A stretch of 64,000 nucleotides of DNA from a virus, in IMG/VR virus record IMGVR_UViG_3300045988_165521; one strand, 5' to 3'. Of this stretch, positions 1-64,000 are shown in pieces. Position 1 is the first letter of the stretch, and each line of letters begins with the position of its first letter. The notes below the pieces were generated by a model, which saw only the letters and a program-made list of their open reading frames with translations, ran no database searches and was not told the origin of the DNA. The translations under genes and the position numbers were made by a program.

Positions 1-644
1 AACACAAAATAACTAAGAACAACTGCTATAATCAAAATTTCTTTAGTAAAATTGATTCTCATGATAAAGCATACTTTTTAGGATTTTTAATGGCAGATGG
101 GTATATTTGTACAACTCCTTACAATAAACAAATAGGAATTGGGATTCAGACAAAAGATAAATATATATTAGAATACTATAAAAATTTAATAGGTAAAAAA
201 TTAAATATAAAACAATATAAAAATTCTAGTAAACTAACTATTACTAGTACTATAATGTATAGTGATCTAACTAAATTAGGATTTATAGAAAATAAATCTC
301 ATAATGACTATCATTTTCCAGATATTCCTGATGAATTTAAATCATCTTTCATTTGTGGATATTTTGATGGAGATGGGTGTATAACTATAAAATCTACAGG
401 ATTTAGTGTATGTTCAATATGTTGTAATTCTAAAATATTCTTAGAAGATTTAAAATCTATATTGGCAAAATATAACATACTATGTAGACCTATCTGTAAA
501 GAAATAAAAAATAGAAAAAATTCAATATATGTTTTATATTTATCAGGAAGATCCAACCAATTAAAATTTAAGGATTTTATATATAAGAGCGTTAATGTTT
601 ATCTTGTACGTAAATATGATAAATTTATGAAAATACCGTGCTAA
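1..644 (+). CDS. LAGLIDADG homing endonuclease, intron-encoded, 5'-partial (frame open to the window edge)
   Basis: Two LAGLIDADG motifs are present: AYFLGFLMADGYI (about 69-107) and FICGYFDGDGCI. The frame of track ORF 90..644 stays open upstream to nt 3 (HKITKNNCYNQNFFSKIDSHDKAYFLGFL...). The stop is TAA. Confidence 0.85.
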   Translation, partial: HKITKNNCYNQNFFSKIDSHDKAYFLGFLMADGYICTTPYNKQIGIGIQTKDKYILEYYKNLIGKKLNIKQYKNSSKLTITSTIMYSDLTKLGFIENKSHNDYHFPDIPDEFKSSFICGYFDGDGCITIKSTGFSVCSICCNSKIFLEDLKSILAKYNILCRPICKEIKNRKNSIYVLYLSGRSNQLKFKDFIYKSVNVYLVRKYDKFMKIPC

Positions 645-810
645 CTGTTGTAATAATATATAATGGTAGTGTAACGCGTAGGAAGTGAACCTGTTATACA
701 GAATATAATCTTCCCAAGAGTGTCCATTATCCTTATGGGATAAAAATGTACGCTGAACTATAAGGAAACTTATAGAAGTAGAGATAAAAAGCTCTACGAT
801 AACAAAATTG
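1..810 (+). mobile_element. Group I intron, 3' portion (the 5' splice site lies upstream of the window), inserted in the Walker A codons of an AAA_24-type ATPase gene
   Basis: It carries a LAGLIDADG ORF. The 3' tail 748-810 (gtacgctgaacta...gctctacgataacaaaattg) aligns with the tails of the introns ending at 5643, 20742 and 24148. The P7 halves gcgta (676-680) and tacgc (749-753) covary with gacta/tagtc in the other copies. The intron ends in G (810), directly before the in-frame exon KSTACANLPG. Confidence 0.7.
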
Positions 811-1479
811 AAAAGCACAGCTTGTGCTAATCTTCCTGGAGCATTATGTATCGACCTTGAAGGGGGTGGATATGATTATATTGATGCTGTAAAGGTAAAA
901 GCATCTTCTGTTAAAGATTTAAAAGAAATTTGTGCTGCAATTAAGGAAGCTAAATATCCTTATAAGTTTATTGTATTGGATACAATTACTAGACTTGAAG
1001 AAATGGTTAAACCATTAGCTTTAAAGTTATATTTAAATAGTCCTGCAGGACAAAAGTTTACAGGAGATGACGTACTTGATGCACCAATGGGAGCAGGATA
1101 TAGCGCTCTTCGTAAGGCATTAGAGATGGTTATTGATATGGTATCTAAATGTGCACCTAATATTATTCTTATTTGTCATACAAAGGATTCAGCAATCGGT
1201 AATACTGATATGACTGCAAAGACTATTGACTTATTTGGAAAAGCAGGTAGAATTCTTGCTTCAAAGTCAGATGCTATTGGTTATTTAGATAGAGATGAAG
1301 ATTCAAATACTATTCTAAGTTTTAATACAAATGATAAATTTGTAGAATGTGGTGCTAGACCAGAACATTTACGAAATGCAGATGTAGTATTAGGAGAAAT
1401 GAAGGAAGATGGAAATATTGAATTTCATTGGGAAAGAATTTATCCTTCACTTTTAAATCCTGTAGAAGTTAATATATAA
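811..1479 (+). CDS. AAA_24 / Sak4-like recombination ATPase, exon 2 (exon 1 lies upstream of the window)
   Basis: It starts KSTACANLPGALCIDLEGGGYDY, which is the tail of a GxxGxGK|ST P-loop followed by the family-typical 'IDxEGG'. A Walker B-like FIVLDTIT and ILICHTKD are present. The track ORF's TTG 'start' at 808 is the intron end. Confidence 0.7.
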   Translation, partial: KSTACANLPGALCIDLEGGGYDYIDAVKVKASSVKDLKEICAAIKEAKYPYKFIVLDTITRLEEMVKPLALKLYLNSPAGQKFTGDDVLDAPMGAGYSALRKALEMVIDMVSKCAPNIILICHTKDSAIGNTDMTAKTIDLFGKAGRILASKSDAIGYLDRDEDSNTILSFNTNDKFVECGARPEHLRNADVVLGEMKEDGNIEFHWERIYPSLLNPVEVNI

Positions 1480-1489
1480 TCTAAGGATT

Positions 1490-1945
1490 ATGCTAAAGGT
1501 ATCTTTTGAATTTGACGAAGAATCGAAGGCTGTTACAAATGTTAAAGTTGTTAAAGTGCCTTCAAAATATGATAATATAGATTTACCAATTGTAGAGATA
1601 GGAGATAGTAAGTTAATTATGTCTCCTAAAGCCGTTAGTTTATTATCTGCACAATGCGGAGATCGGATAGCAGTTAATTATATCCAAAAAAGTAACGAGC
1701 TTACAATCCCAGTTATCGGTAAAGCTGAAGTATTTTCAGATCCTGAAAATGGGAACAAATTAACAAAAAGTAATACAGTCTCTTTTAAAGGGACTCAAAA
1801 AACAATTTTATCTAAATATGGTCAACTCTTTAAAATAGAGGAATGTAGACCTGGTATGTTTAAAATGATTAAGATTGATGAATCAGATCTTTCTAAAGCT
1901 GATACCGATTTAGATACAGAAAATTCAGATTTATTAAAAATTTAA
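1490..1945 (+). CDS. hypothetical protein (151 aa)
   Basis: ATG to TAA, tightly packed with its neighbours. No motif recognised. Confidence 0.55.
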   Translation: MLKVSFEFDEESKAVTNVKVVKVPSKYDNIDLPIVEIGDSKLIMSPKAVSLLSAQCGDRIAVNYIQKSNELTIPVIGKAEVFSDPENGNKLTKSNTVSFKGTQKTILSKYGQLFKIEECRPGMFKMIKIDESDLSKADTDLDTENSDLLKI

Positions 1946-1957
1946 AATTATAAGAAT

Positions 1958-2623
1958 ATGTCAATGTTTGATTTTAGTGTAGCAAAGAATGCAAATCAAG
2001 TAACTTCTACTTTCCTTCGTGGAGGAATCCATAATGTAACCTATAAAGGTATTGAATGAGTAGCTAGTCAGAGTGAAGGTAATTCTGATGCTTTTGTTTT
2101 GTTATTTGAAACAAAGGACGGTATCCAGCATCGAGAAACTATTTTTGATCCAAGTAATATAAGTAATTGTACTCAGAGAGCTACAACTCAGTATGGAGAA
2201 AATCCATCTGAAATGGAAAACTTTATGGTTAAGATTACTCAAATCATTAATGCTCTTAATCCTGAATTAGGTGCAAAAATTGCTGCAGGAGAAAAGATTG
2301 AAGTAAGTAGCTTTAAGGCTCTTGCTAAATATTTAAAGGAAAACTTAGCAAGTTCTGTTGGTAAGGAAACTCAAATCAAGTTAATTCCTTATAAAGGTTT
2401 TGCTAATATGCCTAAGTATGTTGCATCAGTAGGTAAAGATGGAGTAGTTCGTAGTAAAACAAAAGTTATTGGTGAAGATTTAACTTTAACTGCTAGAGAA
2501 AAGACTGATATTGAGAATGCTAACTCTGCACAACCTACTAACATGAAAGAACGGGATAAGGATTTAGACGATCTTAAGGAAACGTTTAATGTAAAAGGCT
2601 CAGAAGACGACTTGCCATTCTAA
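1958..2623 (+). CDS. putative ssDNA-binding protein with an acidic C-terminal tip
   Basis: ATG at 1958 is in frame with track ORF 2099..2623 through one TGA (GIE[TGA]VASQ). The C terminus GSEDDLPF resembles the SSB acidic tail (D-D-[IL]-P-F). The gene sits between the recombination ATPase and the primase. Confidence 0.5.
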
Positions 2624-2645
2624 AAAATAATATAGTTAAATTTTA

Positions 2646-3674
2646 ATGGTCTTTACATTAGAACCGATAAATATCACTAAAGAACTTATTTTAAGTAAAG
2701 TTAGTGAAGAAACTTTAATGGAGCATTACTTGGGCATTCCTGTAAAAAAAGGATTGTTCAAGTCTCCATTAAGGCAAGATAGTAAACCTACCTGCGCATT
2801 TTATAGGAATAGGAAAGGAGATTTAATATTTAAAGATTTTCGTGGAGACTTTTATGGAAATTTTATTTCGGTTGTAATGTATAAATTCGATTGTCCTTAT
2901 GGCAAGGCTTTACAAATAATTGCTAATGACTTTGGAATAGTTTCCCGCAAAAATTTAACTATAAATAAACCTCTTATTAAATATACAAATCAAAAGTTTA
3001 ATGATACTACTCAAGCTGTTATTCAAATTGAAGATAAGTCTTGAGAAGATTATGAACTTGAATGGTGATCTAAATATGGTATAGATAAAACTATACTAAA
3101 AAAGTTTCATGTATTTTCATGTAAAAATGTATTTTTAAATGGAAGTATATTTAGTTTACATAAAGATCGGCAATTAGTATTTGGATATTATGGAGGTATT
3201 CGAGAAGATATAGAACGTTGACGTATATATTTTCCTGGAAATATAAAGTATAAGTTTATTTCAAATTGAAAGTCATTTAGATTACAAGGTGCTCATGCAC
3301 TTCCAAAAAATGGAGGAGAATATTTAGTTGTAACGAAATCTTTAAAGGATGTTATGACTCTTTATTCATGTGATAAAATTCCTGCAATAGCTCCAATTTC
3401 TGAAAATTGTTTTTTAACTGAAGCTCAATATACAAAGTTAAAGTCTAAATTCAACAAGATAATTTTATTCTATGATAATGACCTTGCTGGAATTGAAAAC
3501 ATGAATAAAATTCGTAAGAAATTTCCTGACGTACATGTATTATTTATACCTAGACATTATAAAGCTAAGGATATATCAGATTTTTATAAAATGTATGGAA
3601 GGACTAAAACTTTAGAATTAATTGAAAAAGCAAAAAACTACATCTCAGAAAAAGAAAACAGGAGCATACTGTAG
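2646..3674 (+). CDS. DNA primase (TOPRIM type)
   Basis: Track ORFs 2646..3044 and 3354..3674 are in the same frame and are joined through four TGA codons (3042, 3066, 3219, 3267). The bridging sequence reads as protein: EDYELEW[W]SKYGIDKTILKKF...ERWRIYFPGN...SNWKSFRLQG. A TOPRIM-like LVVTKSLKD...ILFYDNDLAGIE is present. The stop is TAG. Confidence 0.75.
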
Positions 3675-4017
3675 AAATAAAGGACATAGATATGAGACAA
3701 AAATTGCTCAGGAACTTAGAAATCTTGGATTTACAGATGTAGTTACATCAAGATCTGAGTCTAAGAGTATGGATGACAAAAAAGTGGATTTAGTTGATCG
3801 CAGTGGTAAGTTACCATGTTATATACAATTGAAAAATACTGTTAATACACCTCAATATCATGCTATTAAAAAAGAATGTCCTTTAAAAGATAAACCTTTT
3901 ATTGTAATTTGAAATAAACAAGTTAAGAAAGAAAAAGTATTTGGTTCTGCAGGAGAAGTAGTAATCATGGATAAAGACTTTTTCTATGAACTCTTATCAA
4001 AATTAATTAATGGATAG
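3622..4017 (+). CDS. Hjc/PD-(D/E)XK-like nuclease, putative Holliday junction resolvase
   Basis: The pattern KGHRYETKIAQELRNLGF...VDLVD...CYIQLKNT fits an E...D...(E/Q)xK nuclease core. One in-frame TGA lies at 3910. The start is uncertain (TTG at 3622 overlaps the primase end). The stop is TAG at 4015-4017. Confidence 0.45.
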
Positions 4018-4216
4018 TTGTAGAGTAGTGTTCACCTCTGCTTCTGGACAAAAAATCATTATTGTATTTACATATGATGAAGAGAAGGATGAATTAAATT
4101 ACGTCCCTCGATTTGAACCTCAAGTTGATGCAAAAACTCAATTAGGTTTGTCTGGAAAGTTATGTGAAATATTTTTAGAAGCATTATCTAGCAAAGATGG
4201 AACAACAAAAGATTAG
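4010..4216 (+). CDS. hypothetical protein (68 aa)
   Basis: ATG to TAG ORF overlapping both neighbours by a few nt. No motif recognised. Confidence 0.4.
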   Translation: MDSCRVVFTSASGQKIIIVFTYDEEKDELNYVPRFEPQVDAKTQLGLSGKLCEIFLEALSSKDGTTKD

Positions 4217-4838
4217 ATACGATTTGACTCCACAATATGGAATTGAGGAGGTCAACAAAATTCTTACAAGTAAATTAAGTAAGTACCAAGAAAACGAATG
4301 GAAAAGAGGTATGAAGTGGACGGATGTTCTCTCATCTCTTAAAAAACACTTGAATCAGTTCGAACGAGGTATTGATTATACAAACGAGGGACTTTTAGAA
4401 ATGGCTGAAGTAGCTACTAATGCATTGATATTATGTGAATTTTATCATATATATCCTCAAGGAGATGATAGAGTTATGGCCCCTATCGATAAGCCTATTG
4501 TTGGATTAGATCTCGATAATGTAGTATTTGATTTCAATAAAGCTTATGAAGACAAGTTTGGTGTTGCTATGAATCCTTACTGGAATGCAAACTATCAGAT
4601 GTCTGAACATCTACATGAATTAGAATCAGATAAAGAGTTTTGGATTAATATTCCTGTATTACATAGACCCTCTTTTGAAGTAGACTATTATGTAACTGCA
4701 AGAAATATTCCAACTGAATGGATTCAGGAAAGTTTACAGAAGAATGGTTTACCATGTGCTCCTGTAATTACAGTACCTTGGAATGCTAGTAAAGTTGAGG
4801 CAATTAAAAGTAGGGGAATTACGATTATGATTGACGAT
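4197..4838 (+). CDS. dNTP pyrophosphohydrolase-like N-domain fused to a 5'(3')-deoxyribonucleotidase (HAD/NT5C-like), exon 1
   Basis: The N-terminal half IRYDLTP...KYQENEWKRG...LLEMAEVATNALILCEF resembles the phage dATP/dGTP diphosphohydrolase N-domain. The second half has HAD motif I (VGLDLDNVVFDF). The exon ends ...ITIMIDD, with the last nt T at 4838 immediately before the intron. Confidence 0.6.
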
Positions 4839-5643
4839 TAAAAATATTACTTCAACTAATCCAGTCGTCATTAAATCGCATGAATTGCTGGAAACTCCAG
4901 AGATGGACAATCAGCAGCCAAGCACACCTTTAACAAAGTGTGAAGGTTCAACGACTAACTAATGAAACTATGTTAACATTAATTTTAATAATACTATTTA
5001 GTTGTAGAATATATTATAATCCTAGTCCATTGTTTGAAGAGTATAAAAATTATAGAAATCAAAAACATGAATTAGAATTAGTACAATGTGCTAATACAGA
5101 TAAGAAAATTAAGCAGCTATTATCTATATACTTAGATAAGTACCAGGGAAATCGAATATGGATAATACAGTATCATAGAGGGATCAATGACTACATGTGT
5201 GGTTCTATGAGATTTGAACTTTATGATAAACAAACTAAACCTATTAAATATCAGTATACTGATTTTAACCTAAGTTGGTATACTCTACCCGATTATTTAA
5301 GAATCCATGATAGTTTTATAGGAAAACTTGAAGAGGTTGATCCTGTTTTATCTATAAGTAATAGTGCAAAATATATTATTTGTAAATTAATAAGAGATTA
5401 CAATAATGTTTCTATTGGTATATTTGGTATATCTTATTTAGATAAGCTTCCTAACAAATTGTTAGAAACAGATCTGCAACAAGATTATATTGAATTACAA
5501 AAATTAATGTTAGAATAGAATATAATTTAGACACGAGCGTGCGACATCTAGAAATAGATGATGATATAGTCTGAACTACAGATATAATCTAAAAATGAAA
5601 CTGTAGAATTAACAGATAAAGAACTGTTAAGTTAACATAATTG
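4839..5643 (+). mobile_element. Group I intron (805 nt) in the deoxynucleotidase gene
   Basis: P1 pairs exon tgacgaT (4832-4838) with intron Gtcgtca (4864-4870), giving U.G at the splice site. Core blocks are gaattgctgg 4882-4891, caatcagcagcc 4908-4919, ggttcaacgacta 4945-4957 and gatatagtctgaacta 5563-5578. It ends ...cataattG (5643). Confidence 0.8.
4970..5518 (+). CDS. intron-encoded ORF of unknown function (182 aa from ATG 4970); no homing-endonuclease motif recognised
   Basis: It lies between the P7 5' strand and the P7 3' strand (the P8 loop region). The hydrophobic N terminus MLTLILIILFSC suggests a signal peptide or membrane anchor. No LAGLIDADG, GIY-YIG, HNH or His-Cys signature is present. 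The track start GTG 4940 overlaps the intron core, so ATG 4970 is more likely. Confidence 0.5.
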   Translation: MLTLILIILFSCRIYYNPSPLFEEYKNYRNQKHELELVQCANTDKKIKQLLSIYLDKYQGNRIWIIQYHRGINDYMCGSMRFELYDKQTKPIKYQYTDFNLSWYTLPDYLRIHDSFIGKLEEVDPVLSISNSAKYIICKLIRDYNNVSIGIFGISYLDKLPNKLLETDLQQDYIELQKLMLE

Positions 5644-5769
5644 AAATATGATAATTATAAAGAAATTACTAATGCGGGAATATTCTGTTATTTAATGGAT
5701 GCTCCTCATAATCAGTATTATCAAGTAGGACATCGTAGAATTTATGATCTTAAAATACCTATTAAGTAA
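5644..5769 (+). CDS. 5'(3')-deoxyribonucleotidase, exon 2 (41 aa)
   Basis: It reads KYDNYKEITNAGIFCYLMDAPHNQYYQVGHRRIYDLKIPIK. Joined to ...IMIDD this gives the NT5C-type IDD...(x)n...L.DAPHN C-terminal region. TAA at 5767-5769 overlaps the next ATG. Confidence 0.6.
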   Translation, partial: KYDNYKEITNAGIFCYLMDAPHNQYYQVGHRRIYDLKIPIK

Positions 5770-6062
5770 TGAACTTAAAGGATAAATTAGAACTGGCCTT
5801 ACATGAAGCCTATATAAAAGCCTATAAATTAGCTGAACCTTCTGCAGACTTTGATATTTTAGTTGAAAATGCAGAAATTATGTCAGATGGCAAGAAGAAC
5901 ATTCATTTTGAAAACTACTTTTTAGATGATGATATTGCAGAAAATATCTTAAATGAAGTAGCTAAGAAATATAAGTTATCTAAATACATGAAAAGCCAGC
6001 TTCATATAGCTTATTATTTAGGTTGTAGTCCAGCGACAAAACGCAAGGAAAATGACAATTAA
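5769..6062 (+). CDS. hypothetical protein (97 aa)
   Basis: ATG to TAA, translationally coupled to its neighbours. Confidence 0.5.
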   Translation: MNLKDKLELALHEAYIKAYKLAEPSADFDILVENAEIMSDGKKNIHFENYFLDDDIAENILNEVAKKYKLSKYMKSQLHIAYYLGCSPATKRKENDN

Positions 6063-7071
6063 CTTAAATGATATAAAACTTAGTCCAGTCTTAGAAAGTG
6101 TATATAGAAGTAAAATAAGTGATGCAGAATATTTCTCAAGCTCTTATTCTAATTATATATCAAATTCTAGATTAAAGTATATAAATCCCGATCAGGGTGG
6201 TAGTCCAAGTTTATATAATAAAGGTATAGAAAATAAATCAACTAATTCTTTAGAATTAGGAACAGCTATACATGAATTATTTTTACAACCAGAGTCTTTT
6301 AAATTAGGTGATTCATATAATAAGCCTACAGCAAAATTAGGTATGGTAATAGATAGTATTATTAAATATAGAAAACAAGGTTATACTATTAGAGAATCTA
6401 TTACTAAAAGCTGTATTGATATAGATTATTATAAAAATAATTTAAATGAGAGTAGAATCCAAAATATAATAAAATCTGGATTAAATTATTATCAAAACTG
6501 CAAAGATTTAATAGAAGGCGATTTAGTAATTTTAAATGATAAACATCGTACAATTTGCAGTAATTGTTTAGAATCGTTATCTAACAATCCTTCAATAGTA
6601 AACTTAGTAAGACCTGAAGGTCTTGAAGCTTATAATGAAGATGCTTTGTTCATAGATATTATTGGCGAATATAATAATAGTAAATGTATATTAAAATTAA
6701 AAATGAAAGCTGATAATTGGACGATTGATAAAGATAATAAAATAATTACTCTTAATGATTTAAAGACTACGGGTCATTTACTTGAACAATTTATGAATGG
6801 AAGTTTTTGGAATTTTCATTATCATAGACAGATGGGAATGTACCTATGGATGTTACTTCAATTCTGTAAAAAAGAATATGGATACACTCCTAAAGACTGG
6901 ACTTTTCAAGCTAATATTATTGCCGTTGAAACTACAGGCTCTAACAGAGCTAGTGTTTTTAATATTGATTCAGATATACTTAATATAGGTAGATTAGAAT
7001 TTTGTAGACTTCTAAAAATGGTTGCATATTGTGAAATCAATGGTTATTCTGATGATGTTACATTTATTTAA
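6052..7071 (+). CDS. PD-(D/E)XK family exonuclease (DUF3799-like)
   Basis: GTAIHELFL is present, followed by ...KADNWTID...ITLNDLKTTG (D...D/ExK), followed by HYHRQMGMYLW. Confidence 0.6.
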   Translation: MTINLNDIKLSPVLESVYRSKISDAEYFSSSYSNYISNSRLKYINPDQGGSPSLYNKGIENKSTNSLELGTAIHELFLQPESFKLGDSYNKPTAKLGMVIDSIIKYRKQGYTIRESITKSCIDIDYYKNNLNESRIQNIIKSGLNYYQNCKDLIEGDLVILNDKHRTICSNCLESLSNNPSIVNLVRPEGLEAYNEDALFIDIIGEYNNSKCILKLKMKADNWTIDKDNKIITLNDLKTTGHLLEQFMNGSFWNFHYHRQMGMYLWMLLQFCKKEYGYTPKDWTFQANIIAVETTGSNRASVFNIDSDILNIGRLEFCRLLKMVAYCEINGYSDDVTFI

Positions 7072-7073
7072 AT

Positions 7074-7625
7074 ATGCGCAAATTAGAAATTCAGGCTTAT
7101 ACCTTAGATGAAGCTAAAATTAATGCTTTTAAACAAGGTATAACTGTAGTACAAGATGCTACCAGAAGCTGAAAAAAATCTGGATCTCCAGTTCTAACTA
7201 AAGATATGAATATATTTGCTGCAGATTTTCTTGAACAAAAAGGAATGTTTGATTTTGAAGGTGCTGGTATTATTATTGCTATAAAATCTGGCACTAAAGA
7301 TACTCGTAAGAAACCTTATAAAGTTATTAGTTCAAGACGTAAAGGACGTTGTAAGCTTTATCGAACTATTGAAATTCGTTTAAAACGTAATCATGAAGTG
7401 ATTGGAGAAGCAGTAAACAAAACTGAAGCGTTAAATCTAGCTAAAAGTTTAATTCGTAACTTTCGTGAAAATGTGTATGCAAAAACTGTATACAATACTA
7501 AAGATATTGATTTTGAACTTGAATATATGCCTTCTACTAAGGCAGAAAAAGGGCAATATATTGTCTTTGGAGTAGAACAATCTGATGTAAAACTCAGTAA
7601 AAGAAAGAATAGAGGGGCAGAGTAA
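7074..7625 (+). CDS. hypothetical protein (183 aa)
   Basis: ATG at 7074 is in frame with track ORF 7206..7625 through one TGA (ATRS[TGA]KKSG). A hairpin terminator follows. Confidence 0.5.
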
Positions 7626-7640
7626 TCTGCCTCTTTTATT
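7611..7640 (+). terminator. intrinsic terminator-like hairpin
   Basis: The sequence is agaggggcaga-gtaa-tctgcctct followed by tttatt. It overlaps the stop of the upstream ORF. Confidence 0.5.
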
Positions 7641-7666
7641 CTCTTTATATATAAAATTATATATAA

Positions 7667-55461: not shown

Positions 55462-55791
55462 TTACTTTTTAGCAAAGAATTTATTTTTCATTTCCCCGCC
55501 ATTTTCTTTCTTAGCACATTTCTTGCGGCCTACCATCTTTCCACCTTTCTTAAATACAGGTTCTCCTTCAGGAACTTGTCCAACAGGACCTTGTGGTCCT
55601 TCGCTCATAGCTTGTTGTAAAAGAGCTAAGAAACCTTCACAGACTTGAGCCATTGCTTGACAGTCTTGCGTCTGTAATGCTTGAGCTGCCATTTCTGCTA
55701 ACATTTGTAGTGGATCTTGTCCACCTTGTGGACCAGCAGGTGCCGCAGGAACAGGAGCGGACCCGCCTTCTTGATACTTTTTAACTTTCAT
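55462..55791 (-). CDS. small Ala/Gln/Pro/Gly-rich basic-tailed protein (109 aa), compositionally GC-rich
   Basis: It reads MKVKKYQEGGSAPVPAAPAGPQGGQDP...EGPQGPVGQVPEGEPVFKKGGKMVGRKKCAKKENGG. It runs ATG to TAA with its own promoter-like motif and terminator. Confidence 0.65.
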   Translation of the reverse strand: MKVKKYQEGGSAPVPAAPAGPQGGQDPLQMLAEMAAQALQTQDCQAMAQVCEGFLALLQQAMSEGPQGPVGQVPEGEPVFKKGGKMVGRKKCAKKENGGEMKNKFFAKK

Positions 55792-55859
55792 AATTTAAAT
55801 TATTTTAATTTTTATAGATATCTCATAACTCTATGATTGTCATATATTCATTTAATGCC

Positions 55860-55891
55860 CAAAGATAACACTTTAGTTCTTAATATCCAAA
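55860..55891 (-). promoter_or_regulatory. Bacteroidota-type promoter candidate (TTTG-N20-TAtcTTTG) for the 109-aa gene
   Basis: On the minus strand, TTTG is plus-strand caaa at 55888-55891 and TATCTTTG is plus-strand caaagata at 55860-55867. The ATG lies 68 nt downstream. Confidence 0.45.
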
Positions 55892-55936
55892 TAAAATTAC
55901 TAAAATTTTCATTTACACTAAATTTTTATGAAAACA

Positions 55937-55968
55937 CTTGCTACATTAGCAATATTATATTATCTTTG
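55937..55968 (+). promoter_or_regulatory. plus-strand promoter-like motif (cTTG-N20-TAtcTTTG) in a minus-strand region
   Basis: cttg lies at 55937-55940 and tatctttg at 55961-55968. It points toward the plus-oriented terminator at 56072-56105. Confidence 0.3.
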
Positions 55969-55974
55969 TTCCAC

Positions 55975-56100
55975 AACCCAAGAGTATAAAATGAGTCTAT
56001 TTCATTCTCTTTGGAGATGCTAGATTAAACATGAGGCAATATAGGGTTATAAAAGATAGTTAGTATCTTTTAAGGAGAGTAAGAAATTACTCTCCTTTTT
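55975..56100 (+). ncRNA. candidate small non-coding transcript bounded by the promoter-like motif and a plus-oriented terminator
   Basis: It contains only a 10-codon ORF (MSLFHSLWRC). The boundaries are inferred from flanking signals only. Confidence 0.2.
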
Positions 56101-56105
56101 CTTTA
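56072..56105 (+). terminator. intrinsic terminator hairpin with a GAAA tetraloop and a plus-strand T-run
   Basis: The sequence is aaggagagtaa-gaaa-ttactctcctt followed by tttctt. There is no T-run in the minus orientation. Confidence 0.5.
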
Positions 56106-56106
56106 T

Positions 56107-56709
56107 CTATTTAGGAGATTCGATAAACTCACTTGGACGATTATCCTGTTCATTTATATATTTAAAAATCTTTTTTCCAAGTTTAGCATAATCAGAATCA
56201 GCTTTACTTTTATTAGCTCTTTTTGCTAATTTTATTAAAGTTCTAGAATTTTTTCTTGAGAAAATACGTTCGCCACCAACTAAATCCATTTGAGGTTTTC
56301 CATCAGATCCAAGAATATACATTTTATCAATTTCTTTTTCATCTATATCCTCTTCAAAGTCTAATTCGTCTCCAATCTGAATTCCAGAATTAGCATTAAC
56401 TTCTAATACATATTTAGTTCTTCCTTCTTCATCTTCAGGAGTAGAAATAATTGGTTCAGAACTATGAGCTTTACCTAATACTACATTATAAACTTCATCA
56501 TCTTGATTTATAAATACTAAATCAATATCGAATTCCATTTCCTCTGTATTAAATACTACTTGACCTTGATCTTCAGGCATTATAAATAACATACCCTCGT
56601 CATCATCCATAGATTCTACATTACCTAAACCCTGAATTCTTTCTTCTTCCGTTTCTGCTATTAGAACTTTATATTCTTTATCTGCTATTTCTATTTTTAC
56701 CTCTTTCAT
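56107..56709 (-). CDS. DUF192-domain protein (200 aa)
   Basis: YKVLIAETEEERIQGLGNVESMDDDEGMLFIMPEDQGQVVFNTEEMEFDIDLVFINQDDEVYNVV...YVLEVNANSGIQIGDEL matches the DUF192 pattern (A.T...R..GLM...GMLF...M.nt..pLDi.Fi). The stop is TAG at 56107-56109. Confidence 0.6.
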   Translation of the reverse strand: MKEVKIEIADKEYKVLIAETEEERIQGLGNVESMDDDEGMLFIMPEDQGQVVFNTEEMEFDIDLVFINQDDEVYNVVLGKAHSSEPIISTPEDEEGRTKYVLEVNANSGIQIGDELDFEEDIDEKEIDKMYILGSDGKPQMDLVGGERIFSRKNSRTLIKLAKRANKSKADSDYAKLGKKIFKYINEQDNRPSEFIESPK

Positions 56710-58052
56710 TATTTCACACTTTTAATTAGTCCACTTCTATCATCTGTATTCTTTAATAGTTCATGACAAACTAATTTTCCAGCTTCAATTGCAATTTCGT
56801 TGGATGAATCTTCTTGATATGCTTTATATAAAGCCTCAAGTTTATCAGTAAATTCTTTTCTAAGTGTCCATTCTTCCTTTTCAATTTCTGCTGTCTGAAC
56901 AATTCCTCCTTCAGATTGTGCTACTACAGGAATTCCTTTTTTAGTAATTTGATCTTTTAATTCTGGATTTACATTTTCTAAATGATGTTTATGTGCATGT
57001 AAGTTTCCTTCAGGAATTAAATTCATCTTACCTCCGAGTTGGAATTTTTGTGTTTCTGTAGATTGTGTTGGTCGTTTCTGTAAGAATGCTCTAGCTTCAT
57101 CTAATTCAGGAAATTTCATTCCGTTTTTAGCCAAGGAATACATATTATCTAATCCATTATAAGTATTGAAGTTTTTACTAGCAAGAGACTGACCTATTTG
57201 ATTATTCAGTCGCTTTTTACCTGCATCTGTAATATCTAAAGTAGTATTTTGCATTCTTCTAGCTCTAGTTATAGCATTTTGGCCTTTTCGATGAAATCCA
57301 AAGTCAAATAATCCAGCTTTTTTATTACTATATTTATCAATACTATTACTGATAAATTTCTTTGAACCACTATATTCGTTACTAATATCAGATGTATTAT
57401 CTACTAATTTATTAATACGCTTTCCTCCAATACCATTAATTAAATTTAATGCAGCTCCAGCAGCCATTCCAATAGGGCCAAGCATACTTAGACCATCACT
57501 TACCATTCCTTGTATTTGAGAACCAGTACCTTCAACACGATCTTTAGTTCCTCCAATAAGATTTCCTATAGTTTTAGCTCCAGTATTAATCATTCCACCC
57601 ATAGGATTAAATTGACTTACTACATTGTGTCCTATGTCTTTAACTCCAGACATTACTTGAGCAGTAGATCCAGTTTTCTCATTTCCTACAAGGGCTGTGT
57701 TAAGATTTCCAATGAACTGGTCTCCCATTTGAAAAGCTCCTCCAAATTTGCCATTTAGCTTATTTACAGTTTCTGCTCCAGCAAATGTATCATTCTGTCA
57801 ATTTCTAACAGAATCTACAGTTTTTTGTGAAAACATACCTTTTGCGGTAGAGAAAGGATTCCTTTTATCTGCATCAGAATCAGATTTAGTATCTTTAAAA
57901 TTTCCAATATCTGATTTGATTTTATTCATAGAAGCACTAATGAAAGCATTATAGTTTCCTAAGTTAAGACCAAGCTGTTTTAACATATCTGGACTAATAA
58001 TATTCCCAGAACTAACTCCTCCTATTTCCATTTTTTTTATTCTTTTATGCAT
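56709..58052 (-). CDS. putative internal virion/ejection protein (447 aa) with a glycine-zipper segment
   Basis: Track ORFs 57798..58052 and 56709..57728 are in frame and joined by TGA at 57798. It contains LSMLGPIGMAAGAALNLINGIGG, and FQLGGKMNLIPEGNLHAHKHHLE. The stop TAA at 56709-56711 overlaps the next ATG. Confidence 0.65.
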
Positions 58053-61000
58053 AACTTTGAGTCATTAATGTTTGTAATGCAGTAATAATAACAAGTTTAT
58101 CACCTTTATATTTAACTCTAATTCTTGCATATTTATCTCGAACTTTAGTTGCCTTTAATGGAGATTCAAAATCATTAGAGCTTGTTTGTTCATAATATAT
58201 TGGTTGTACTTGGAAATACCAAGAATCTTCACTATAGTATATATTACCTAATCGTCTTCCATATTCTTTTATATTTAAACAATCTGCATGTACATTTAAG
58301 TAATATTCATTTCGAATTGGATCTCATGTAACTTCTGTTTTATATCCTTTAGATTCTTTATCTAAATAGATTTCTGGGAAATTAGCGTTTGTAGATTCAT
58401 TTTTATTAAAAGTTTTATTTCTATAAATAGCTCTTTTACTAAATTCATATACATCTCCAGTAATTTCTATTTCAATAGAATTTGGTTCAACATTATTAGA
58501 TATTATTACTAAATTGTCAAATATTTTATGAATTCCTTTTGGTTCATTAACTATAAATTCAAACTCAAAAGGTTCCTGTTTATTATATCATTTAGTAGGT
58601 AATATTTGATTTGTTTCATCACTATCAAAATAATTTATCTCATCAATAATGTTACTTCTACCATGTACGAAAATATTATATAATAGTGCCTTATTTCAAT
58701 CATCTTGATATTTCAACATGTCGAATTCTTTTAGCACCTCATAAGGAATAATAGCTCCAGCTGTATATGATCGTTCAATTCCAAAAACAATACAATTACT
58801 CATAAGATTTCCACTCTCATCTTCAGAAGGATTATCTTCTGATGAAGTTACAACATATGGAGTATATTTTACTTCAATAGTATAATATAAATAGCCTCTA
58901 TCCTCTTTTCTGTATAGATCTTTAAATTCTATTGAAAATGGAGCCGCATCCTTCTGTTCAAGATAATTAGCATAGATTATTTTCTGACGGTCCTCTTCTG
59001 ATTCAGCATCTATAGCATTTCCAACATTTTTATTTTTAATTTCAACCCAATTCTCACTTACTTCATCCATAAGCCAGGTTTCTTCATTTGCTTTGCATTC
59101 AATAAGTGAATCAGTTTTTATTTCATCTTCGTCTCAGTAATATCCTTTTATAACGACACTATTAACATTATATCCATCATATCCATCAACTGTGAAAGTA
59201 AACTTTGAGTATTCTCTATCAGAAGTAACATATTTTCCAGTTCATTCTTCTCCTACCTTTACAAGATCATCAGTTTTCCGAAGATTATTACTTATTATAC
59301 TAAATATTTTACTCTTAAGCAAATCAAAACTAAAATATGTATTATTTATATTTTCTGATAATAAAGGAACTCACGAATATCTAGTAACTCACATGCTACG
59401 TACTTCATTATAACATATATTCCAAATTTTATCATTATTATAAAAAGTGAACATAACATCATTTTTATAAGCATTAAAGTGAGTTTTAACATTTCTCGTT
59501 CCTAATGCTACTGTTTTTTCAAGTTCCTTAAGATTTATTTCATCATTAAGGAATCTTTGAATTGTAAAATCAGATATAAGTTCAAGACCTCTATCAGAAA
59601 ATCTCCAAATTTTCTTAGTATATGTATCAACACCATATACTGCCCTAGGAGTTCTTATAATAGAGTCTTTTCATATAGAACCATACATATCAGATATAAT
59701 TGTCATTTGCTTTTGTAATACTCCAGATCCATACATATGAATATTTTGCCCAGTAATAGTTTGAATAAGAGCTTTTTCATTTATTGGAACAATAGCTATA
59801 GCATGTTCAAATACAGTTAATAGATTTCCTCCTCAAGGAAGAATTTTTACTATACCTCCATATTGTCTATCTAAATCTTCATATGATAATCCTTGGAATA
59901 CCTTATATGAGTTCTTAAAGTTTCCATCTACCTGAATATCACTAAACATTATACGAGTATCAAACTCGTCAACCTCATAAGGTACATCTATGTGCTTATA
60001 ATTTCTTTTAAATCCTAGAGTAGTACTATATCCTCTATTATATAAGTTACTTTCTGGAATTTTAGCAGAAGATTTAGTAGACATACCTTGTATAGGATAA
60101 AATCCTCTTGGATTTCCCATTAATGCAATTTCTTCTGTATTAAACTCATCAATACTTCTAAGAGAAATATTATTATTAGATAATCCTTTAAATGTTACTC
60201 AACTTCCAATAGCTACTGCATTAATATCTCCAATATTTATATCATCCCAGTTTTCAGTATTTCTAATACCTTTAAAATTATCTTTTCAAGTATTAAAATC
60301 TACTATTGTATCATTTGTAGGAACTGTTTGAGAAGTGAAGTTTCTATGTAACCTAATGGTAGTTGTATAAGTAAAGCAATCACCACGATATAATATTGGA
60401 ATCATACTCCAATTAAATTCTATAGAATTACCTTCCACGTCTTTATAATCAGTAGTACAATCTGTAATATCTTTGTCTTTTATTACACTAGTATCTGTAG
60501 CATATCTATCAGATACTGCAAAGTAAGGAGAATTATCATCGATTCTTATTTGAAAATATTCCTTATTAAATGTTTCGGAGTAATTTTTTATATAAACATT
60601 ATATAATGATGATTTACCAAGTAAAGTGTTACATCCTACAAAATCAGTAAATACTCCTCTAACTAATTGAGCATCGCTTGATTCTATATCCTCTTTTCCA
60701 AAACAGGTTTGTTGTTTAATTTCTTCTTGCATTCCTGCTCTAGTACAAAAGATATTATCATTAATAATTTTCTGAGGAATATCCGAGTCTATATATAAAA
60801 GTTCGCTTGTTGTTTCTGCATTTGTACTTTCAACATTTGTTAAATCTAAGGTATAACTTCTTCCTGATGCGTTATATTGATTAAACTTGTATGCTTCTAC
60901 TAATTTATATCTATCTGAGTTAAGTAGAGATTGCATTTGCTTATCACACTTAACATCTGCTGATAATAATCCTGAATAGCTACAATTGTTACTATATATA

Positions 61001-62565
61001 AGTTTTGAATCATAATCGTTAATCAATACCTTATTTTTATTTACAAAAGATTCTGTTACAAGCTTTGGATTTTGGCCTCCTTCAGAAAGATCAAGACAAG
61101 GAACTCCACTTACAGTGTCAACTCCTATAGATAACCCAGAGAATAAAAATGTTGGAATACGCTGTTGCCTAACAAAGTAGTATCCCTTAATATTCAGTTC
61201 TTTAAGTTTATTAATTACAAATTCAGGGATTCTAATTTTTAATCCCAATGGCTTCACAGATTTTCCGTCATGATCAATAATAGTCTTATCTTTAGTAAAT
61301 CTAAATACTCCTCTTGTATTTTCTAAAGTTTCTAAAGATATAAAATCTTTATTTTCTATAGTTTCAGGATCTCTTAAGTCTATATTATAATCATAATTAC
61401 ATTTATTACTTGATATTATCTCTCCATTATCCCCTTTTTCTTTAAAATGATAAGTTGAAAGATTAAAATCAATACCTCTAAGATTATATACAGGAGATAA
61501 ATGCTCATCATTATATATAAATACTACTCCTAGTCTATAAATTTCTCCAGGGAAATATCCAAGTCTATAATATATATTATATGGAGAATAGTATTCTGCA
61601 GCAGTAATATCCCCTTTATAAATTCCATATTTATCTGTAATATATCCTATATCATGTTCTTGACATTCTTCTACATTAATATATAACGCAAGATTACTTA
61701 AAGTGGCAGAGTCTTCTTTAAGTTTTGAAACATTTGCAAAGAATAATCTATTTTGAACTTGTGCCTGGCTTTTTACAGACTCTACATAGTTATATTGTAT
61801 ATTTAAATCTTCTGCAGTTATGTCTTCAAGTTCTTCAAATCCATTAATGGTTATTGTTTGATTGACATCAGTTATTTCATAAGTCTTTTTTATTTTATGA
61901 AAATCTGTTTTAGAAATACCATTTACATCACAACTTGTTCTACTATAATATATATTTATATAACTAAAAGACGTATCTATATTCTTAAGATAAAGTATTA
62001 TAGATTTATCAGTACGTTCATCCATATAAGCTCCAACACAAGTCTTAGGATTTGATAAATCTCCTTTAAATACAGACACTATTCCTGATTCAGCAACAAT
62101 ATCAGTTTCATTATAGTCACTATCAGAATATTTTATATAAAATATATAATTCCCTCCTTTGAGAGTTCCAAAGTAATCTACATTTTTAAATTGAATCTTT
62201 GGAATTCTAGTAACGTTTCTAAATAACCTAGTTTGTTGATCTAATTCATTTTCTGTATATAAATTAGATTGTTTAATTTGGTTTCGATTTATAATTTTAT
62301 ATCTATTATTTTCTAATAACGCTACTCTAGTATTTATTATTCTAGGAGGATTTTTATCATCGTTGAATATTAAATTTGTACTTCCATCATAAGAACTTTG
62401 ACATTCTATGTCTATAGGATTTTCTAGATCTAATTTTAATTGAGAATTACTTACTGTAAAATCATCAATCTGATCATCAGATTTTTTTAAATTACGTAAA
62501 GGATTATACTCTCAAGCAATATCTCCAGTATCCTTGTACTTTTTTACTTTCAGTTTTATATCCAT
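58045..62565 (-). CDS. large structural (tail-associated?) protein (1506 aa)
   Basis: ATG at 62563-62565 (upstream in-frame TAA at 62587) to TAA at 58045-58047. It joins track ORFs 60286..62079 (whose 'start' is an internal GTG), 59833..60120 and 58696..59070, plus unlisted segments, through TGA only; I walked the gaps. The function is assigned from position only. Confidence 0.6.
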
Positions 62566-64000
62566 TATTGCCCGTCATCATATATATTAGAAATAAACTC
62601 TCTTGCTACAGAACGCGTATTATTATCTGTCTCTCTCATAAACAATTCTAAAGTAGCATCCATATTAGATCTTACTTGATCTGTAAACACCATACTTTTT
62701 ATAGCATTAGTTAATTTCACTTTATTTGCATTCTCATTATACTCATGAATAAGATACAGGTCTCCACTTTTTATATTCGGCTGTCTTTCTAATTCATCTA
62801 CTTTAATTCTTACATCACTATTCTTATTATCTATTAACCTTTGGAGTTCATATTTAAAAGATTCATCAGGAGTAACTATACAATTAAAATTGACATTTGT
62901 ATTTGTAGATATCACATTATTGTCTGCAAAAGATACTCCATTAAATATTGAATCTATTTCATCTGGAATGTCAACTCCCTCATCCATGAAATATTTTCAA
63001 TTATATGTTCCAGAAAGATTAATAGTTTTTATATATACTGGATTTATAAGAGATTCTCTATAGTTATATAAAGAATAATAAATTATATTATTTTTAGAAG
63101 ACATACAATATCTTAAACAGTATATCATCATAAGATAGGAATATATACAAGTTTTAGAAATATAAGAAGCATCTTTCTCTGAAGGCGCCTTATTAGCACA
63201 GTAATATATACAAGGTCATGAATTTTTTGTTTCATATGACATTGCAAGACAGAAATTATTTGCAGATCCGTATCTGCTAAAGAAACCAGAATCTCCAGAA
63301 TGGCTACTATCATTACCATATTTTGCATTATAGAAATTATATATATTAAATCCATAATCATCTGCATAACTTTTTGTACTAGTTGCAGAATGGCCATTTG
63401 GTTTTCAATCTGTTCTATGCCAATTAGTTCCACTTGAAATATTTAAATCTCCAAGAACACTAGGTCAGTTCTTTTCTGGAGTGAATGCTTCTGTATTCTC
63501 ACCATAATACAACTTATTGTTTTCAAACCTAATAGTAAAAGGACCTACCTCTTTCCACCAGAAACACATTGATCATTTATCTCTTCCAGAACCGTCTTTT
63601 CTAAATTCTACATATTCAGGTCTATATTCTATTGTATGAGTATCGTCTTTATCTGTAACTTTAGTTTTAGTTTTTCCAATAGGATGATATTCATATAAAT
63701 ATTTATCACTACTACTGATTTCTTTTACAATATTATATTCAGTATTTGTAACTGTAAAAGTATTAAACAAATCAAATGAAAAAGATCCATCTATTTTATT
63801 AAAGAGTAGTGTATAAGTATTGCCTTTAGAATCTATAGCCTTGCCATTGTTAACAGTAACGCCTTTAGAAGTGATTCATCTTCATAATCTACCGTCATCT
63901 CCATTTTGGTCTTTTGGAACAGATATAGTATATACTTCAGAGTTTCCTACCTTTTTAATAGAATATGTATTGCCTTGTTTAAATATAGTCTTAATTCCAA
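62565..64000 (-). CDS. structural-module protein, C-terminal part (more than 478 aa; the start lies beyond the window)
   Basis: The frame of track ORFs 62565..62987 and 63573..63770 is open from the window edge to TAA at 62565-62567 with only TGA in between. The bridging translation (…GTNWHRTDWKPNGHSATSTKSYADDYGFNIYNFYNAKYGNDSSHSGDSGFF…) looks protein-like. Confidence 0.55.

What the first reader, a model, noticed from the sequence alone, without database searches (positions are those of the whole stretch)
1..64000. TGA is a sense codon (best read as Trp) in every gene class, including the earliest-type replication genes
Wherever neighbouring track ORFs share a frame, the only codon separating them is TGA. 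Every re-joined gene ends in TAA or TAG.

I walked the gaps codon by codon:
- Primase has TGA at 3042, 3066, 3219 and 3267.
- nrdJ has TGA at 7715, 8351, 8399 and 9287.
- polB has TGA at 16156, 16189, 16543 and 16753.
- The RNAP-like gene has 24 in-frame TGA by my count.

Two nrdJ TGAs fall where class II RNRs, as I recall them, carry Trp. These are AEMN[TGA]DYAEPG (the A-W-x-x-G-[ED]-P-G pattern) and RLA[TGA]EYHLKGVTVYR (the A-W...KG.TVYR pattern). TGG is used alongside TGA.

Recoding here is not restricted to late or structural genes. Primase, polymerase, ligase, RNR, dUTPase and two homing endonucleases all need TGA read-through. No suppressor tRNA gene lies in this window.

Together with the Bacteroidota-like promoter motifs (separate finding), this raises the question of how the first round of translation is achieved.
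Basis: partly seen in the sequence, partly recalled or inferred. Interest (0 to 1): 0.75.

Follow-up and report, generated by a model that had tools for sequence, protein, structure and literature searches.

The report
Gut phage reads TGA as tryptophan
This 64-kb stretch comes from a very common ~175-kb crAss-like phage of the human gut that reads the stop codon TGA as tryptophan in its replication and virion genes; this kind of recoding is already described for the group, and the puzzle of how the first proteins get made goes away because a block just upstream of the window hardly uses TGA.

Summary
All twelve listed TGA coordinates are in frame. Reading TGA as sense raises coding density from 71% to 94%, and 27 of 50 genes carry 120 in-frame TGAs.

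TGA means Trp, not Gly:
- Three of the four NrdJ TGAs sit in the few columns where diverse homologues mostly have Trp.
- Relatives swap TGA and TGG at the same sites.
- TGA+TGG is a constant ~12 per 1000 codons in all modules.

The window belongs to an extremely prevalent Zeta-type crAss-like phage. TGA→Trp recoding, including in PolB, is already published for this group.

I reassembled the whole genome from near-identical contigs. A ~36–43-kb block upstream of the window is almost TGA-free and holds about 25 tRNA genes and a tmRNA. TGA's share of Trp codons rises from 0.16 (that block) to 0.43 (replication) to 0.59 (virion). So the "first round of translation" does not need TGA read-through.

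One point stays open. No tRNA with a UCA anticodon exists anywhere in this clade's genome. The only phage Trp tRNA keeps the anticodon CCA. Sense TGAs avoid a following T, which suggests competition with a release factor.

Verdict: correct, already known, modest interest.

The parts
1..27314 (+). Replication and nucleotide-metabolism module: 39 called genes, 38 in-frame TGA against 68 TGG, 18 genes with at least one TGA.
   Evidence: Gene calls; Pfam hits; synteny with called genes in L001 and L009.
2646..3674 (+). Toprim primase with in-frame TGA at 3042, 3066, 3219 and 3267.
   Evidence: Pfam Toprim_2, E = 1.1e-06.
7667..9910 (+). Class II (B12-dependent) ribonucleotide reductase NrdJ. TGA at 7715, 8351, 8399 and 9287 (aa 17, 229, 245, 541).
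   Evidence: Pfam Ribonuc_red_lgC, E = 5.3e-97. In 150 diverse representatives W is the commonest residue at aa 17, 229 and 541, and Y then W at aa 245. The T. maritima NrdJ alignment has W at aa 229.
10301..10855 (+). dUTPase with one in-frame TGA (aa 32).
   Evidence: Pfam dUTPase, E = 2e-16. The site aligns to His in 7n56, so it is not a conserved Trp.
12217..13449 (+). ATP-dependent DNA ligase with two in-frame TGA.
   Evidence: Pfam DNA_ligase_A_M, E = 3.8e-26. The TGA at aa 148 aligns to Tyr in 4d05.
16003..17952 (+). Family-B DNA polymerase with four in-frame TGA.
   Evidence: There is no Pfam hit. The sequence itself shows DIE (Exo I), DVASLYPS (motif A), KLALNGLSG (motif B) and NTDG (motif C).
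18036..18824 (+). GIY-YIG/NUMOD homing endonuclease with four in-frame TGA. A Bacteroidota-type promoter motif lies 32 nt upstream.
   Evidence: Pfam; motif at 17973-18004.
18818..19078 (+). Thioredoxin with one in-frame TGA.
   Evidence: Pfam Thioredoxin, E = 2.6e-15.
19733..20509 (+). HNH-like endonuclease ORF. It follows a Thy1-like (thyX) ORF fragment at 19065-19601 and ends ...TGA TGA AAT TAT GTA TAA. The tandem TGA may be the ancestral stop.
   Evidence: Translation; 88% nucleotide match to the thyX region of a Kehishuvirus; the Thy1 hit on the preceding ORF is faint.
23169..23912 (+). Second GIY-YIG/NUMOD homing endonuclease with three in-frame TGA. A promoter motif lies 17 nt upstream.
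   Evidence: Pfam; motif at 23122-23152.
27419..64000 (-). Block of giant ORFs on the minus strand (virion or injected proteins): 11 genes, 82 in-frame TGA against 49 TGG. The ORFs are 27419-31855 (13 TGA), 31855-34974 (9), 35203-40998 (15), 40988-48874 (12), 48878-50773 (5), 50776-55386 (11), 58045-62565 (12) and 62565 to beyond 64000.
   Evidence: Only 58045-62565 has a PHROG hit, to a virion structural protein (phrog_15100). RNAP identity not confirmed.
55860..55891 (-). Bacteroidota-type promoter-like motif (TTTG-N19-21-TAnnTTTG), 69 nt upstream of gene 55462-55791. It is one of 6 matches in the window, against 2.1 expected.

Best explanation
The window covers the replication module and part of the virion module of a ~175-kb Zeta-type crAss-like phage of the human gut. 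In its middle and late genes UGA is decoded as tryptophan (shown).

The recoding is graded along the genome (shown):
- A ~36-43-kb block just upstream of the window is almost free of in-frame TGA. It carries about 25 tRNA genes and a tmRNA.
- The replication genes use TGA for about 43% of Trp codons.
- The virion genes use it for about 59%.

The likely sequence of events is inferred. The upstream block is expressed first and can be translated with the host's standard code. Its RNA genes need no translation. Once UGA-decoding capacity is in place, the TGA-containing replication and virion genes yield full-length proteins.

The decoder is unresolved. This clade has no tRNA with a UCA anticodon. 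My best guess is that the phage's own tRNA-Trp(CCA), which has the U11-A24 pair of UGA-reading tRNA-Trp variants, reads UGA by a C-A wobble in competition with host RF2. It may be helped by a phage factor not yet identified.
For: Trp assignment:
- NrdJ columns in diverse homologues.
- TGA/TGG swaps in relatives, never to Gly.
- TGA+TGG is 12.3, 12.7 and 11.4 per 1000 codons in the three modules.
- Coding density rises from 71% to 94%.

Lineage:
- The window is 99.6% and 98.4% identical to IMG/VR contig 3300014793_000001 (174,492 bp) where they overlap.
- A relative at about 85% identity has exactly the length of phage c815351 in Table 1 of PMC12386605, 173,322 bp.
- TerL, portal and major head protein have PHROG hits.

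Gradient:
- TGA/(TGA+TGG) is 0.16, 0.43 and 0.59. Early block vs replication p = 9e-6; replication vs virion p = 0.004.
- 47 of 58 genes in the upstream block are TGA-free.
- The major head protein has 0 TGA and 7 TGG.

tRNAs:
- The full circle was scanned: L391, L306, L094, L075, L015, window, L105, L125, L199, L279, L319. L391 overlaps L319, which closes it.
- Tools were ARAGORN, including relaxed settings, Rfam, and my own search for a UCA anticodon stem-loop followed by a T-loop motif. None found a UCA tRNA.
- One tRNA-Trp(CCA) is identical in 13 loci.

Competition with a release factor: T follows sense TGA in 12% of cases, against 24% after TGG (p = 0.003). A and G are enriched.

Precedents: G24A, A9C and 4-bp-stem variants of tRNA-Trp(CCA) read UGA (PMC13092985). 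Zinderia, Stammera and a Providencia symbiont use UGA = Trp with trnW(CCA) (PMC10540940).
Against: - The timing of expression is inferred from gene order and content only.
- The upstream block still has 20 in-frame TGAs. Several lie at 85-99% of ORF length and may be real stops. Three are in an HNH endonuclease.
- A24 is not special. 45 of 62 similar bacterial tRNA-Trp genes have U11-A24. The phage tRNA has G9 and a normal 5-bp anticodon stem, so two of the three known UGA-reading features are absent.
- Proteins with 12-15 TGAs need near-complete read-through, which weak near-cognate reading alone would not give.
- No release factor or TrpRS was found among the ten upstream-block proteins scanned.
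- The genome circle is a composite of closely related contigs, not the window's own molecule.
Confidence: 0.75

Rival explanations
1. The host itself uses genetic code 4: no RF2, and its own tRNA-Trp(UCA). The phage then simply matches its host and needs no suppressor or code switch.
For: - No UCA tRNA anywhere in the clade's genome.
- TGA occurs in replication genes as well as virion genes.
- The anticodon arm of the phage tRNA-Trp is identical to that of many Bacillota, Izemoplasmatales and Mycoplasmatota genomes.
- Gut bacteria that read UGA as Trp do exist (PMC13462651).
Against: - The upstream block is nearly TGA-free although the DNA is 29% G+C.
- TGA is avoided in the major head protein.
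- T is depleted after sense TGA, as expected if a release factor competes.
- Sister clades carry their own UCA tRNAs.
- The phage is found in 13,592 collection blocks, which fits an abundant gut host.
- Relatives are predicted to infect genera that, to my knowledge, use the standard code (PMC12386605).
- Bacteroidota-type promoter motifs are enriched.
Confidence: 0.12
2. UGA is decoded by something the tRNA finders cannot see. Candidates are a highly non-canonical suppressor RNA, or C34-to-U editing or modification of a Trp tRNA. Near-cognate reading by an unmodified tRNA-Trp(CCA) would then not be the mechanism.
For: - Only about 35% of TGA-recoded phage genomes have a detectable suppressor (bioRxiv 10.1101/2021.08.26.457843). 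The same mismatch is noted in PMC7886860 and PMC12386605.
- C-to-U editing of tRNA-Trp for UGA reading is known in trypanosome mitochondria (PMC8677022).
- The upstream block encodes a methyltransferase, an RNA ligase and an HD-domain protein of unknown targets.
- A degenerate tRNA-like gene lies at L306 507-575.
Against: Relaxed ARAGORN, Rfam and my own search for a UCA anticodon stem-loop followed by a T-loop motif found no candidate over the whole circle. No deaminase was seen among the proteins scanned, but only ten were scanned.
Confidence: 0.3
3. TGA codes for glycine (code 25) or selenocysteine. Alternatively, the TGAs are true stops in fragmented or decaying genes.
For: One dUTPase TGA aligns with a position that is Gly in E. 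coli Dut, by my reading of the motif.
Against: - Gly is found at 5 of about 560 aligned homologue residues across the four NrdJ sites.
- No TGA-to-GGN swap occurs in any relative.
- The same TGAs are conserved in many near-identical contigs.
- Density of 94% and ORFs up to 2629 codons.
- 120 sites is far too many for Sec, and no SECIS-type or other Rfam hit is present.
Confidence: 0.02

Closest known systems
Zeta-group crAss-like phages with opal (TGA to Trp) reassignment (Yutin et al. 2021, PMC7886860; proposed Echekviridae, PMC12386605)
   Same: - Genomes of about 155-190 kb from the human gut, with low G+C.
- PolB or PolA, many homing endonucleases and introns, and a tRNA block at one end.
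- TGA read as Trp, with TGA-containing PolB explicitly described.
- Several members show opal suppression without a detectable suppressor tRNA.
- A relative of the window has exactly the length of c815351 in that paper's table.
   Different: The published accounts stress recoding of late genes. Here TGA makes up 43% of Trp codons in the replication module. The whole-genome gradient, the nearly TGA-free tRNA block, the CCA-only Trp tRNA and the tmRNA are not described there: 'tmRNA' and 'tRNA-Trp' have zero mentions in PMC12386605.
Stop-codon-recoded gut phages with a temporal code switch (Borges et al., bioRxiv 10.1101/2021.08.26.457843)
   Same: Genes compatible with the standard code lie next to recoded structural and lysis genes. 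Replication genes are 'variably' recoded, and mostly recoded in Lak phages. Suppressors are detected in only about 35% of TGA-recoded genomes.
   Different: Jade phages carry a code-change module of suppressor tRNA, TrpRS and RF1. Nothing comparable was found here, only a general tRNA set with tRNA-Trp(CCA).
Bacteria that read UGA as Trp while keeping trnW(CCA): Zinderia, Stammera, Providencia siddallii PSAC (PMC10540940)
   Same: UGA is read as Trp without a UCA anticodon. In PSAC, UGA still serves as a stop in some genes and a release factor is still present.
   Different: Those are reduced endosymbiont genomes with a lost or crippled prfB. Here a virus must impose the reading inside a host that most likely has RF2.
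UGA-reading variants of tRNA-Trp(CCA): Hirsh G24A, A9C, 4-bp anticodon stem (PMC13092985)
   Same: The phage tRNA-Trp has the CCA anticodon and a U11-A24 pair, which is the Hirsh configuration.
   Different: It has G9 and a 5-bp anticodon stem. A24 is common in comparable bacterial tRNA-Trp genes, so it is not evidence of special adaptation.

Membership tests
Genetic code 4 usage (UGA = Trp) | In-frame TGA in conserved genes that end in TAA or TAG | tested here: met
   120 in-frame TGAs in 27 of 50 genes. Coding density rises from 71% to 94%.
Genetic code 4 usage (UGA = Trp) | Trp, not Gly or another residue, opposite TGA in homologues | tested here: met
   NrdJ has W in 73/120, 86/146 and 119/146 homologues at three sites, and Y 67 / W 33 at the fourth. 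Gly is almost absent. TGA and TGG swap in relatives.
Genetic code 4 usage (UGA = Trp) | A tRNA with anticodon UCA | tested here: not met
   None in the window and none in the composite genome of the clade. Sister clades do have one.
Genetic code 4 usage (UGA = Trp) | Absence or inactivation of RF2 during translation | not testable with these tools
   The host is unknown. Depletion of T after sense TGA suggests that a release factor is present.
Zeta-group crAss-like phage | Genome of about 145-192 kb from the gut, with a tRNA block and PolA or PolB | tested here: met
   Near-identical contigs of 173-178 kb. About 25 tRNAs in one region. PolB motifs are present in 16003-17952.
Zeta-group crAss-like phage | crAss-type signature proteins (MCP, portal, TerL, RNAP subunits) placing it in the Zeta clade | tested here: inconclusive
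   There are PHROG hits to major head protein, TerL and portal, but no phylogeny was made. The giant ORFs have no detectable RNAP similarity. The link to the published clade rests on one contig of identical length, 173,322 bp (PMC12386605).
Phage with a temporal code switch (Borges model) | Early genes compatible with the standard code and recoded late genes | tested here: met
   TGA's share of Trp codons is 0.16, 0.43 and 0.59 along the genome. The timing itself is inferred, not measured.
Phage with a temporal code switch (Borges model) | Phage-encoded code-change machinery (suppressor tRNA, aaRS, release factor) | tested here: not met
   No UCA tRNA was found. No RF or TrpRS is among ten upstream-block proteins or in the Pfam labels of the called genes. 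Not every ORF was scanned.
UGA-reading tRNA-Trp(CCA) variants | A24 (Hirsh), C9, or a 4-bp anticodon stem | tested here: inconclusive
   The U11-A24 pair is present. Position 9 is G and the stem has 5 bp (A27-U43 to U31-A39). A24 occurs in 45 of 62 similar bacterial genes. Function is not testable here.

The most novel reading that the evidence does not exclude
This very abundant phage clade recodes UGA to Trp without any UCA suppressor. It floods the cell early with its own tRNA-Trp(CCA), an A24 type that tolerates a C-A wobble, and blunts RF2 by an unknown factor. Its tmRNA handles the ribosomes that still fail. That would make it a natural, virus-imposed 'suppressor-less' code change in a standard-code host.
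Probability: 0.2. Interest if true: 0.7.

Novelty: already known. Interest (0 to 1): 0.3.

Why it matters
Gene calling with the standard code shatters this phage's genes: mean length falls to 185 aa from 420 aa. The right code is therefore needed to annotate one of the commonest phages of the human gut.

The biology is not new. TGA→Trp recoding in Zeta crAss-like phages is published, and so are recoded replication genes in phages.

What remains worth following is the missing decoder. A complete genome holds about 300 TGA Trp codons in its called genes, about 217 of them in the genes analysed. It has no UCA tRNA and a single Trp tRNA with anticodon CCA. This gives a concrete, testable case of a mismatch already noted in the literature for many recoded phages.

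Tried and rejected
**Leads that gave nothing**
- Megablast of 25 kb against GenBank phages found no close relative.
- NrdJ tblastn against phages peaks at 47% identity, in Bacteroides phage BS-TP1 and Clostridioides phages, so no annotated genome of this clade was available.
- PHROGs on six giant proteins gave one hit only.
- A PDB sequence search and tblastn with the 1931-aa ORF gave no RNAP match, so 'RNAP-like' stays unverified.
I walked the genome with protein-seeded locus searches instead.

**Readings rejected**
- Code 25 (Gly), TAG or TAA reassignment.
- A UCA suppressor hidden elsewhere in the genome: none over the closed circle, even at relaxed thresholds.
- A 4-bp anticodon stem in tRNA-Trp: the stem has 5 bp.
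- A24 as a special adaptation: it is common in similar bacterial tRNAs.

**Host clues that are not decisive**
- The exact tRNA-Trp copy in a 'Lactobacillus johnsonii' MAG sits on a 1.1-kb contig and is probably mis-binned.
- The 19-nt anticodon arm points to Bacillota, while the promoter motif points to Bacteroidota.

Full report

- With TGA, TAA and TAG all as stops, the longest ORF is 741 codons. With only TAA and TAG as stops it is 2629 codons.
- A simple greedy gene call covers 70.8% of the window under table 11 and 94.2% when TGA is sense. Mean gene length rises from 185 to 420 aa.
- Making TAG sense gives no gain (72.1%). Making TAA sense gives 79.5%, with no gain in gene length.
- A 2629-codon frame without TAA or TAG has ln P of about -166 at this base composition.
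- My 50 gene calls hold 120 in-frame TGA and 117 TGG. 27 genes have at least one TGA. Stops are TAA 42 times and TAG 8 times.
- ARAGORN finds no tRNA in the window, and Rfam finds no RNA family at gathering thresholds.

One item did not reproduce: '24 TGA in the RNAP-like gene'. No single ORF has more than 15. The count of 24 is the sum for 31855-34974 and 35203-40998, which are separate ORFs.

**2. What the genes are**

Pfam confirms these assignments:
- a Toprim primase
- a class II ribonucleotide reductase (E = 5e-97)
- dUTPase
- an ATP-dependent DNA ligase
- thioredoxin
- two GIY-YIG/NUMOD endonucleases
- a DUF2201 metallopeptidase/VWA protein

The 'PolB' ORF has no Pfam hit. It does show the family-B motifs directly in its sequence (DIE; DVASLYPS; KLALNGLSG; NTDG).

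The minus-strand half consists of giant ORFs. Only one has a PHROG match, to a virion structural protein. I could not confirm any RNA-polymerase similarity by sequence. Yutin et al. note that the RNAP subunits of this group are extremely divergent (PMC7886860).

**3. Which amino acid does TGA encode?**

*Homologue columns.* I compared NrdJ with the best 150 representatives of a 1.84-billion-protein library clustered at 50% identity. The residue opposite each TGA is as follows:

| NrdJ site | Residues in homologues |
|---|---|
| aa 17 | W 73, F 16, Y 11 |
| aa 229 | W 86, H 19, Y 19 |
| aa 245 | Y 67, W 33 |
| aa 541 | W 119, Y 14 |

Only six columns of the whole alignment have more than 50% W. 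Three of those are TGG in the window and three are TGA. Gly appears 5 times in about 560 aligned residues.

*Codon swaps in relatives.* The NrdJ gene of the relatives at 79% identity translates in full under table 11, so it has no in-frame TGA. Across all loci fetched, window TGAs align with TGA or TGG. At low identity they align with Tyr, His or Phe codons, and never with GGN. Window TGGs likewise align with TGA in relatives.

*Frequency.* TGA+TGG per 1000 codons is 12.3, 12.7 and 11.4 in the three genome modules, although the TGA share differs fourfold.

Not every TGA lies at a conserved Trp. One ligase site aligns with Tyr and the dUTPase site with His.

**4. What phage is this?**

- Full-length 747-aa NrdJ proteins at 97-99% identity occur on contigs of 154-171 kb.
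- One 151-aa window protein is indexed in 13,592 blocks of the assembly collection, on contigs mostly 130-177 kb long. This is a very common human-gut phage.
- IMG/VR contig 3300014793_000001 (174,492 bp) is 99.6% identical to the window over 2,310 nt at one end and 98.4% over 8,179 nt at the other.
- A relative at about 85% identity, IMG/VR 3300045988_171911, is 173,322 bp long. That is exactly the length given for the Zeta crAss-like phage c815351 (polB, opal suppression) in Table 1 of PMC12386605.
- TerL, portal and major head protein are recognisable downstream of the window.

I therefore place the window in the Zeta crAss-like group, but I made no phylogeny.

**5. The rest of the genome**

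I walked outward from the window with protein-seeded locus searches. The chain of loci closed into a circle: L391, L306, L094, L075, L015, window, L105, L125, L199, L279, L319. The first 250 nt of L391 overlap the start of L319 at 99.2%.

*RNA genes.* About 25 tRNA genes lie roughly 18-53 kb upstream of the window start. They cover almost all amino acids. A tmRNA lies in the same region (Rfam 98 bits).

*TGA gradient.* The plus-strand genes of that upstream region are almost free of TGA.
- 47 of 58 genes of at least 80 codons have none, and TGA/(TGA+TGG) is 0.16.
- Several of the 20 TGAs that remain lie at 85-99% of ORF length and may be real stops. Three are in an HNH endonuclease.
- TGA becomes frequent only from about 4-11 kb before the window. 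The DEAD helicase has 7 TGA and 0 TGG, and DnaB has 4 and 0.
- The share is 0.43 in the replication module and 0.59 in the virion module. Early block vs replication p = 9e-6; replication vs virion p = 0.004.
- The major head protein has 0 TGA and 7 TGG, while TerL has 10 and 2.

So the genome does hold a block that a standard-code ribosome can translate, and it carries the RNA genes. This matches the model of Borges et al. (bioRxiv 10.1101/2021.08.26.457843). Those authors also report that replication genes are 'variably' recoded, and mostly recoded in Lak phages. Yutin et al. already showed a Zeta-group PolB with multiple TGAs (PMC7886860). That the upstream block is expressed first is my inference from gene order and content.

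**6. What decodes UGA?**

No tRNA with anticodon UCA turned up anywhere on the circle. I used ARAGORN at default and relaxed settings and with introns allowed, Rfam, and my own search for a UCA anticodon stem-loop followed by a T-loop motif.

Sister clades at 75-78% identity do carry UCA tRNAs, at a different place in the block.

The only Trp tRNA of the window's clade has anticodon CCA and is identical in 13 loci. It has G73, a U11-A24 pair, G9 and a normal 5-bp anticodon stem.
- A24 is the Hirsh configuration. G24A, A9C and 4-bp-stem variants of tRNA-Trp(CCA) are known to read UGA (PMC13092985).
- But A24 is ordinary. Of 62 bacterial tRNA-Trp genes that share the same anticodon arm, 45 have U11-A24.
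- Bacteria that read UGA as Trp while keeping trnW(CCA) are known (PMC10540940).

Sense TGAs are followed by T in 12% of cases, against 24% after TGG and 21% overall (p = 0.003). A and G are enriched. This is the direction expected if read-through competes with a release factor. An A after UGA is reported to favour read-through by tRNA-Trp in E. coli (cited in PMC10540940).

No release factor or TrpRS was found among ten upstream-block proteins. Those proteins are an RNA ligase, AAA ATPases, NUDIX, a methyltransferase, DnaJ, an HD-domain protein and a VWA protein.

The decoder therefore remains open. Near-cognate reading by the phage tRNA-Trp(CCA) is my best guess. It is hard to square with proteins that need 12-15 read-throughs unless RF2 is also restrained.

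**7. Host**

The Bacteroidota-type promoter motif TTTG-N19-21-TAnnTTTG occurs 6 times in the window, against 2.1 expected, and none of 100 shuffles reached 6. Four of the six lie 17-69 nt upstream of a gene start on the right strand, and the flanking pieces behave similarly.

PMC12386605 gives iPHoP predictions of Holdemanella or Faecalibacillus for relatives. The anticodon arm of the phage tRNA-Trp is typical of Bacillota.

To my knowledge, all of these candidates use the standard code. A code-4 host cannot be excluded, but it fits poorly with the TGA-free block, the TGA-free head protein and the context bias.

**8. Verdict**

The finding is correct and well observed. It describes a known property of a known phage group. 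The 'first round of translation' problem is an effect of the window's borders. The residual interest lies in the absence of any UCA suppressor in a complete, very abundant genome.

Noticed in passing
L306 9053-9433 (about 38 kb upstream of the window start; also L391 18474-18854): Phage-encoded tmRNA. Rfam RF00023 scores 98 bits. The ARAGORN tag peptide is ANNIFSRIINKVETALFGDIEGVALMAA. It lies in the TGA-poor block with the tRNAs. It is not mentioned in the 2025 paper on this phage group.
   Followed up: partly
L306 507-575; L392 2528-2599; L309 506-576: A tRNA-like gene with good acceptor, D and T arms (Rfam tRNA 51.8 bits) but a truncated anticodon arm. ARAGORN reports a 2-nt 'anticodon'. 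Its function is unknown.
   Followed up: partly
window 19733-20509 (with 19065-19601): An HNH-like endonuclease ORF follows a Thy1-like (thyX) ORF fragment. It ends with tandem TGA TGA four codons before TAA. The region matches the thyX region of a Bacteroides-infecting Kehishuvirus at 88% nucleotide identity. This suggests a mobile element that came from a standard-code phage and kept its original stop.
   Followed up: partly
window 7667-9910 and 2646-3674, compared with L008, L010 and L012: Homing-endonuclease polymorphism between strains. NrdJ is intact in the window but is split into 264-aa and 485-aa parts by a GIY-YIG ORF in other contigs. The primase is split by a LAGLIDADG ORF in L008.
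   Followed up: no
L125 5749-5968 (same site as L199 14719-14938): Group I intron (Rfam RF00028, 92 bits) in the late-gene region outside the window. No group I intron reached threshold inside the window, despite its several endonuclease ORFs.
   Followed up: no
L041 6787-6877 and ten other sister-clade loci: A G+C-rich, 91-nt, selenocysteine-like tRNA with anticodon UCA in sister clades. Other sister clades have Trp-like UCA tRNAs (L045, L051). The clades seem to have solved UGA decoding in different ways.
   Followed up: partly
L015 167-254, L075 9645-9732 (compare L023 708-782): tRNA-Arg(UCU) is 88 nt long in the window's clade but 75 nt in the clade at 85% identity. The extra length could be an insertion or a long variable arm.
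   Followed up: no
L513 (DBFNNF010000292.1, 1,111 nt): An exact copy of the phage tRNA-Trp lies on a tiny contig binned into a Lactobacillus johnsonii MAG. This is most likely mis-binned phage DNA rather than host evidence.
   Followed up: partly
window 17973-18004, 19671-19702, 23122-23152: Three of the six Bacteroidota-type promoter motifs in the window sit directly upstream of homing-endonuclease ORFs. These mobile genes may carry their own host-type promoters.
   Followed up: partly
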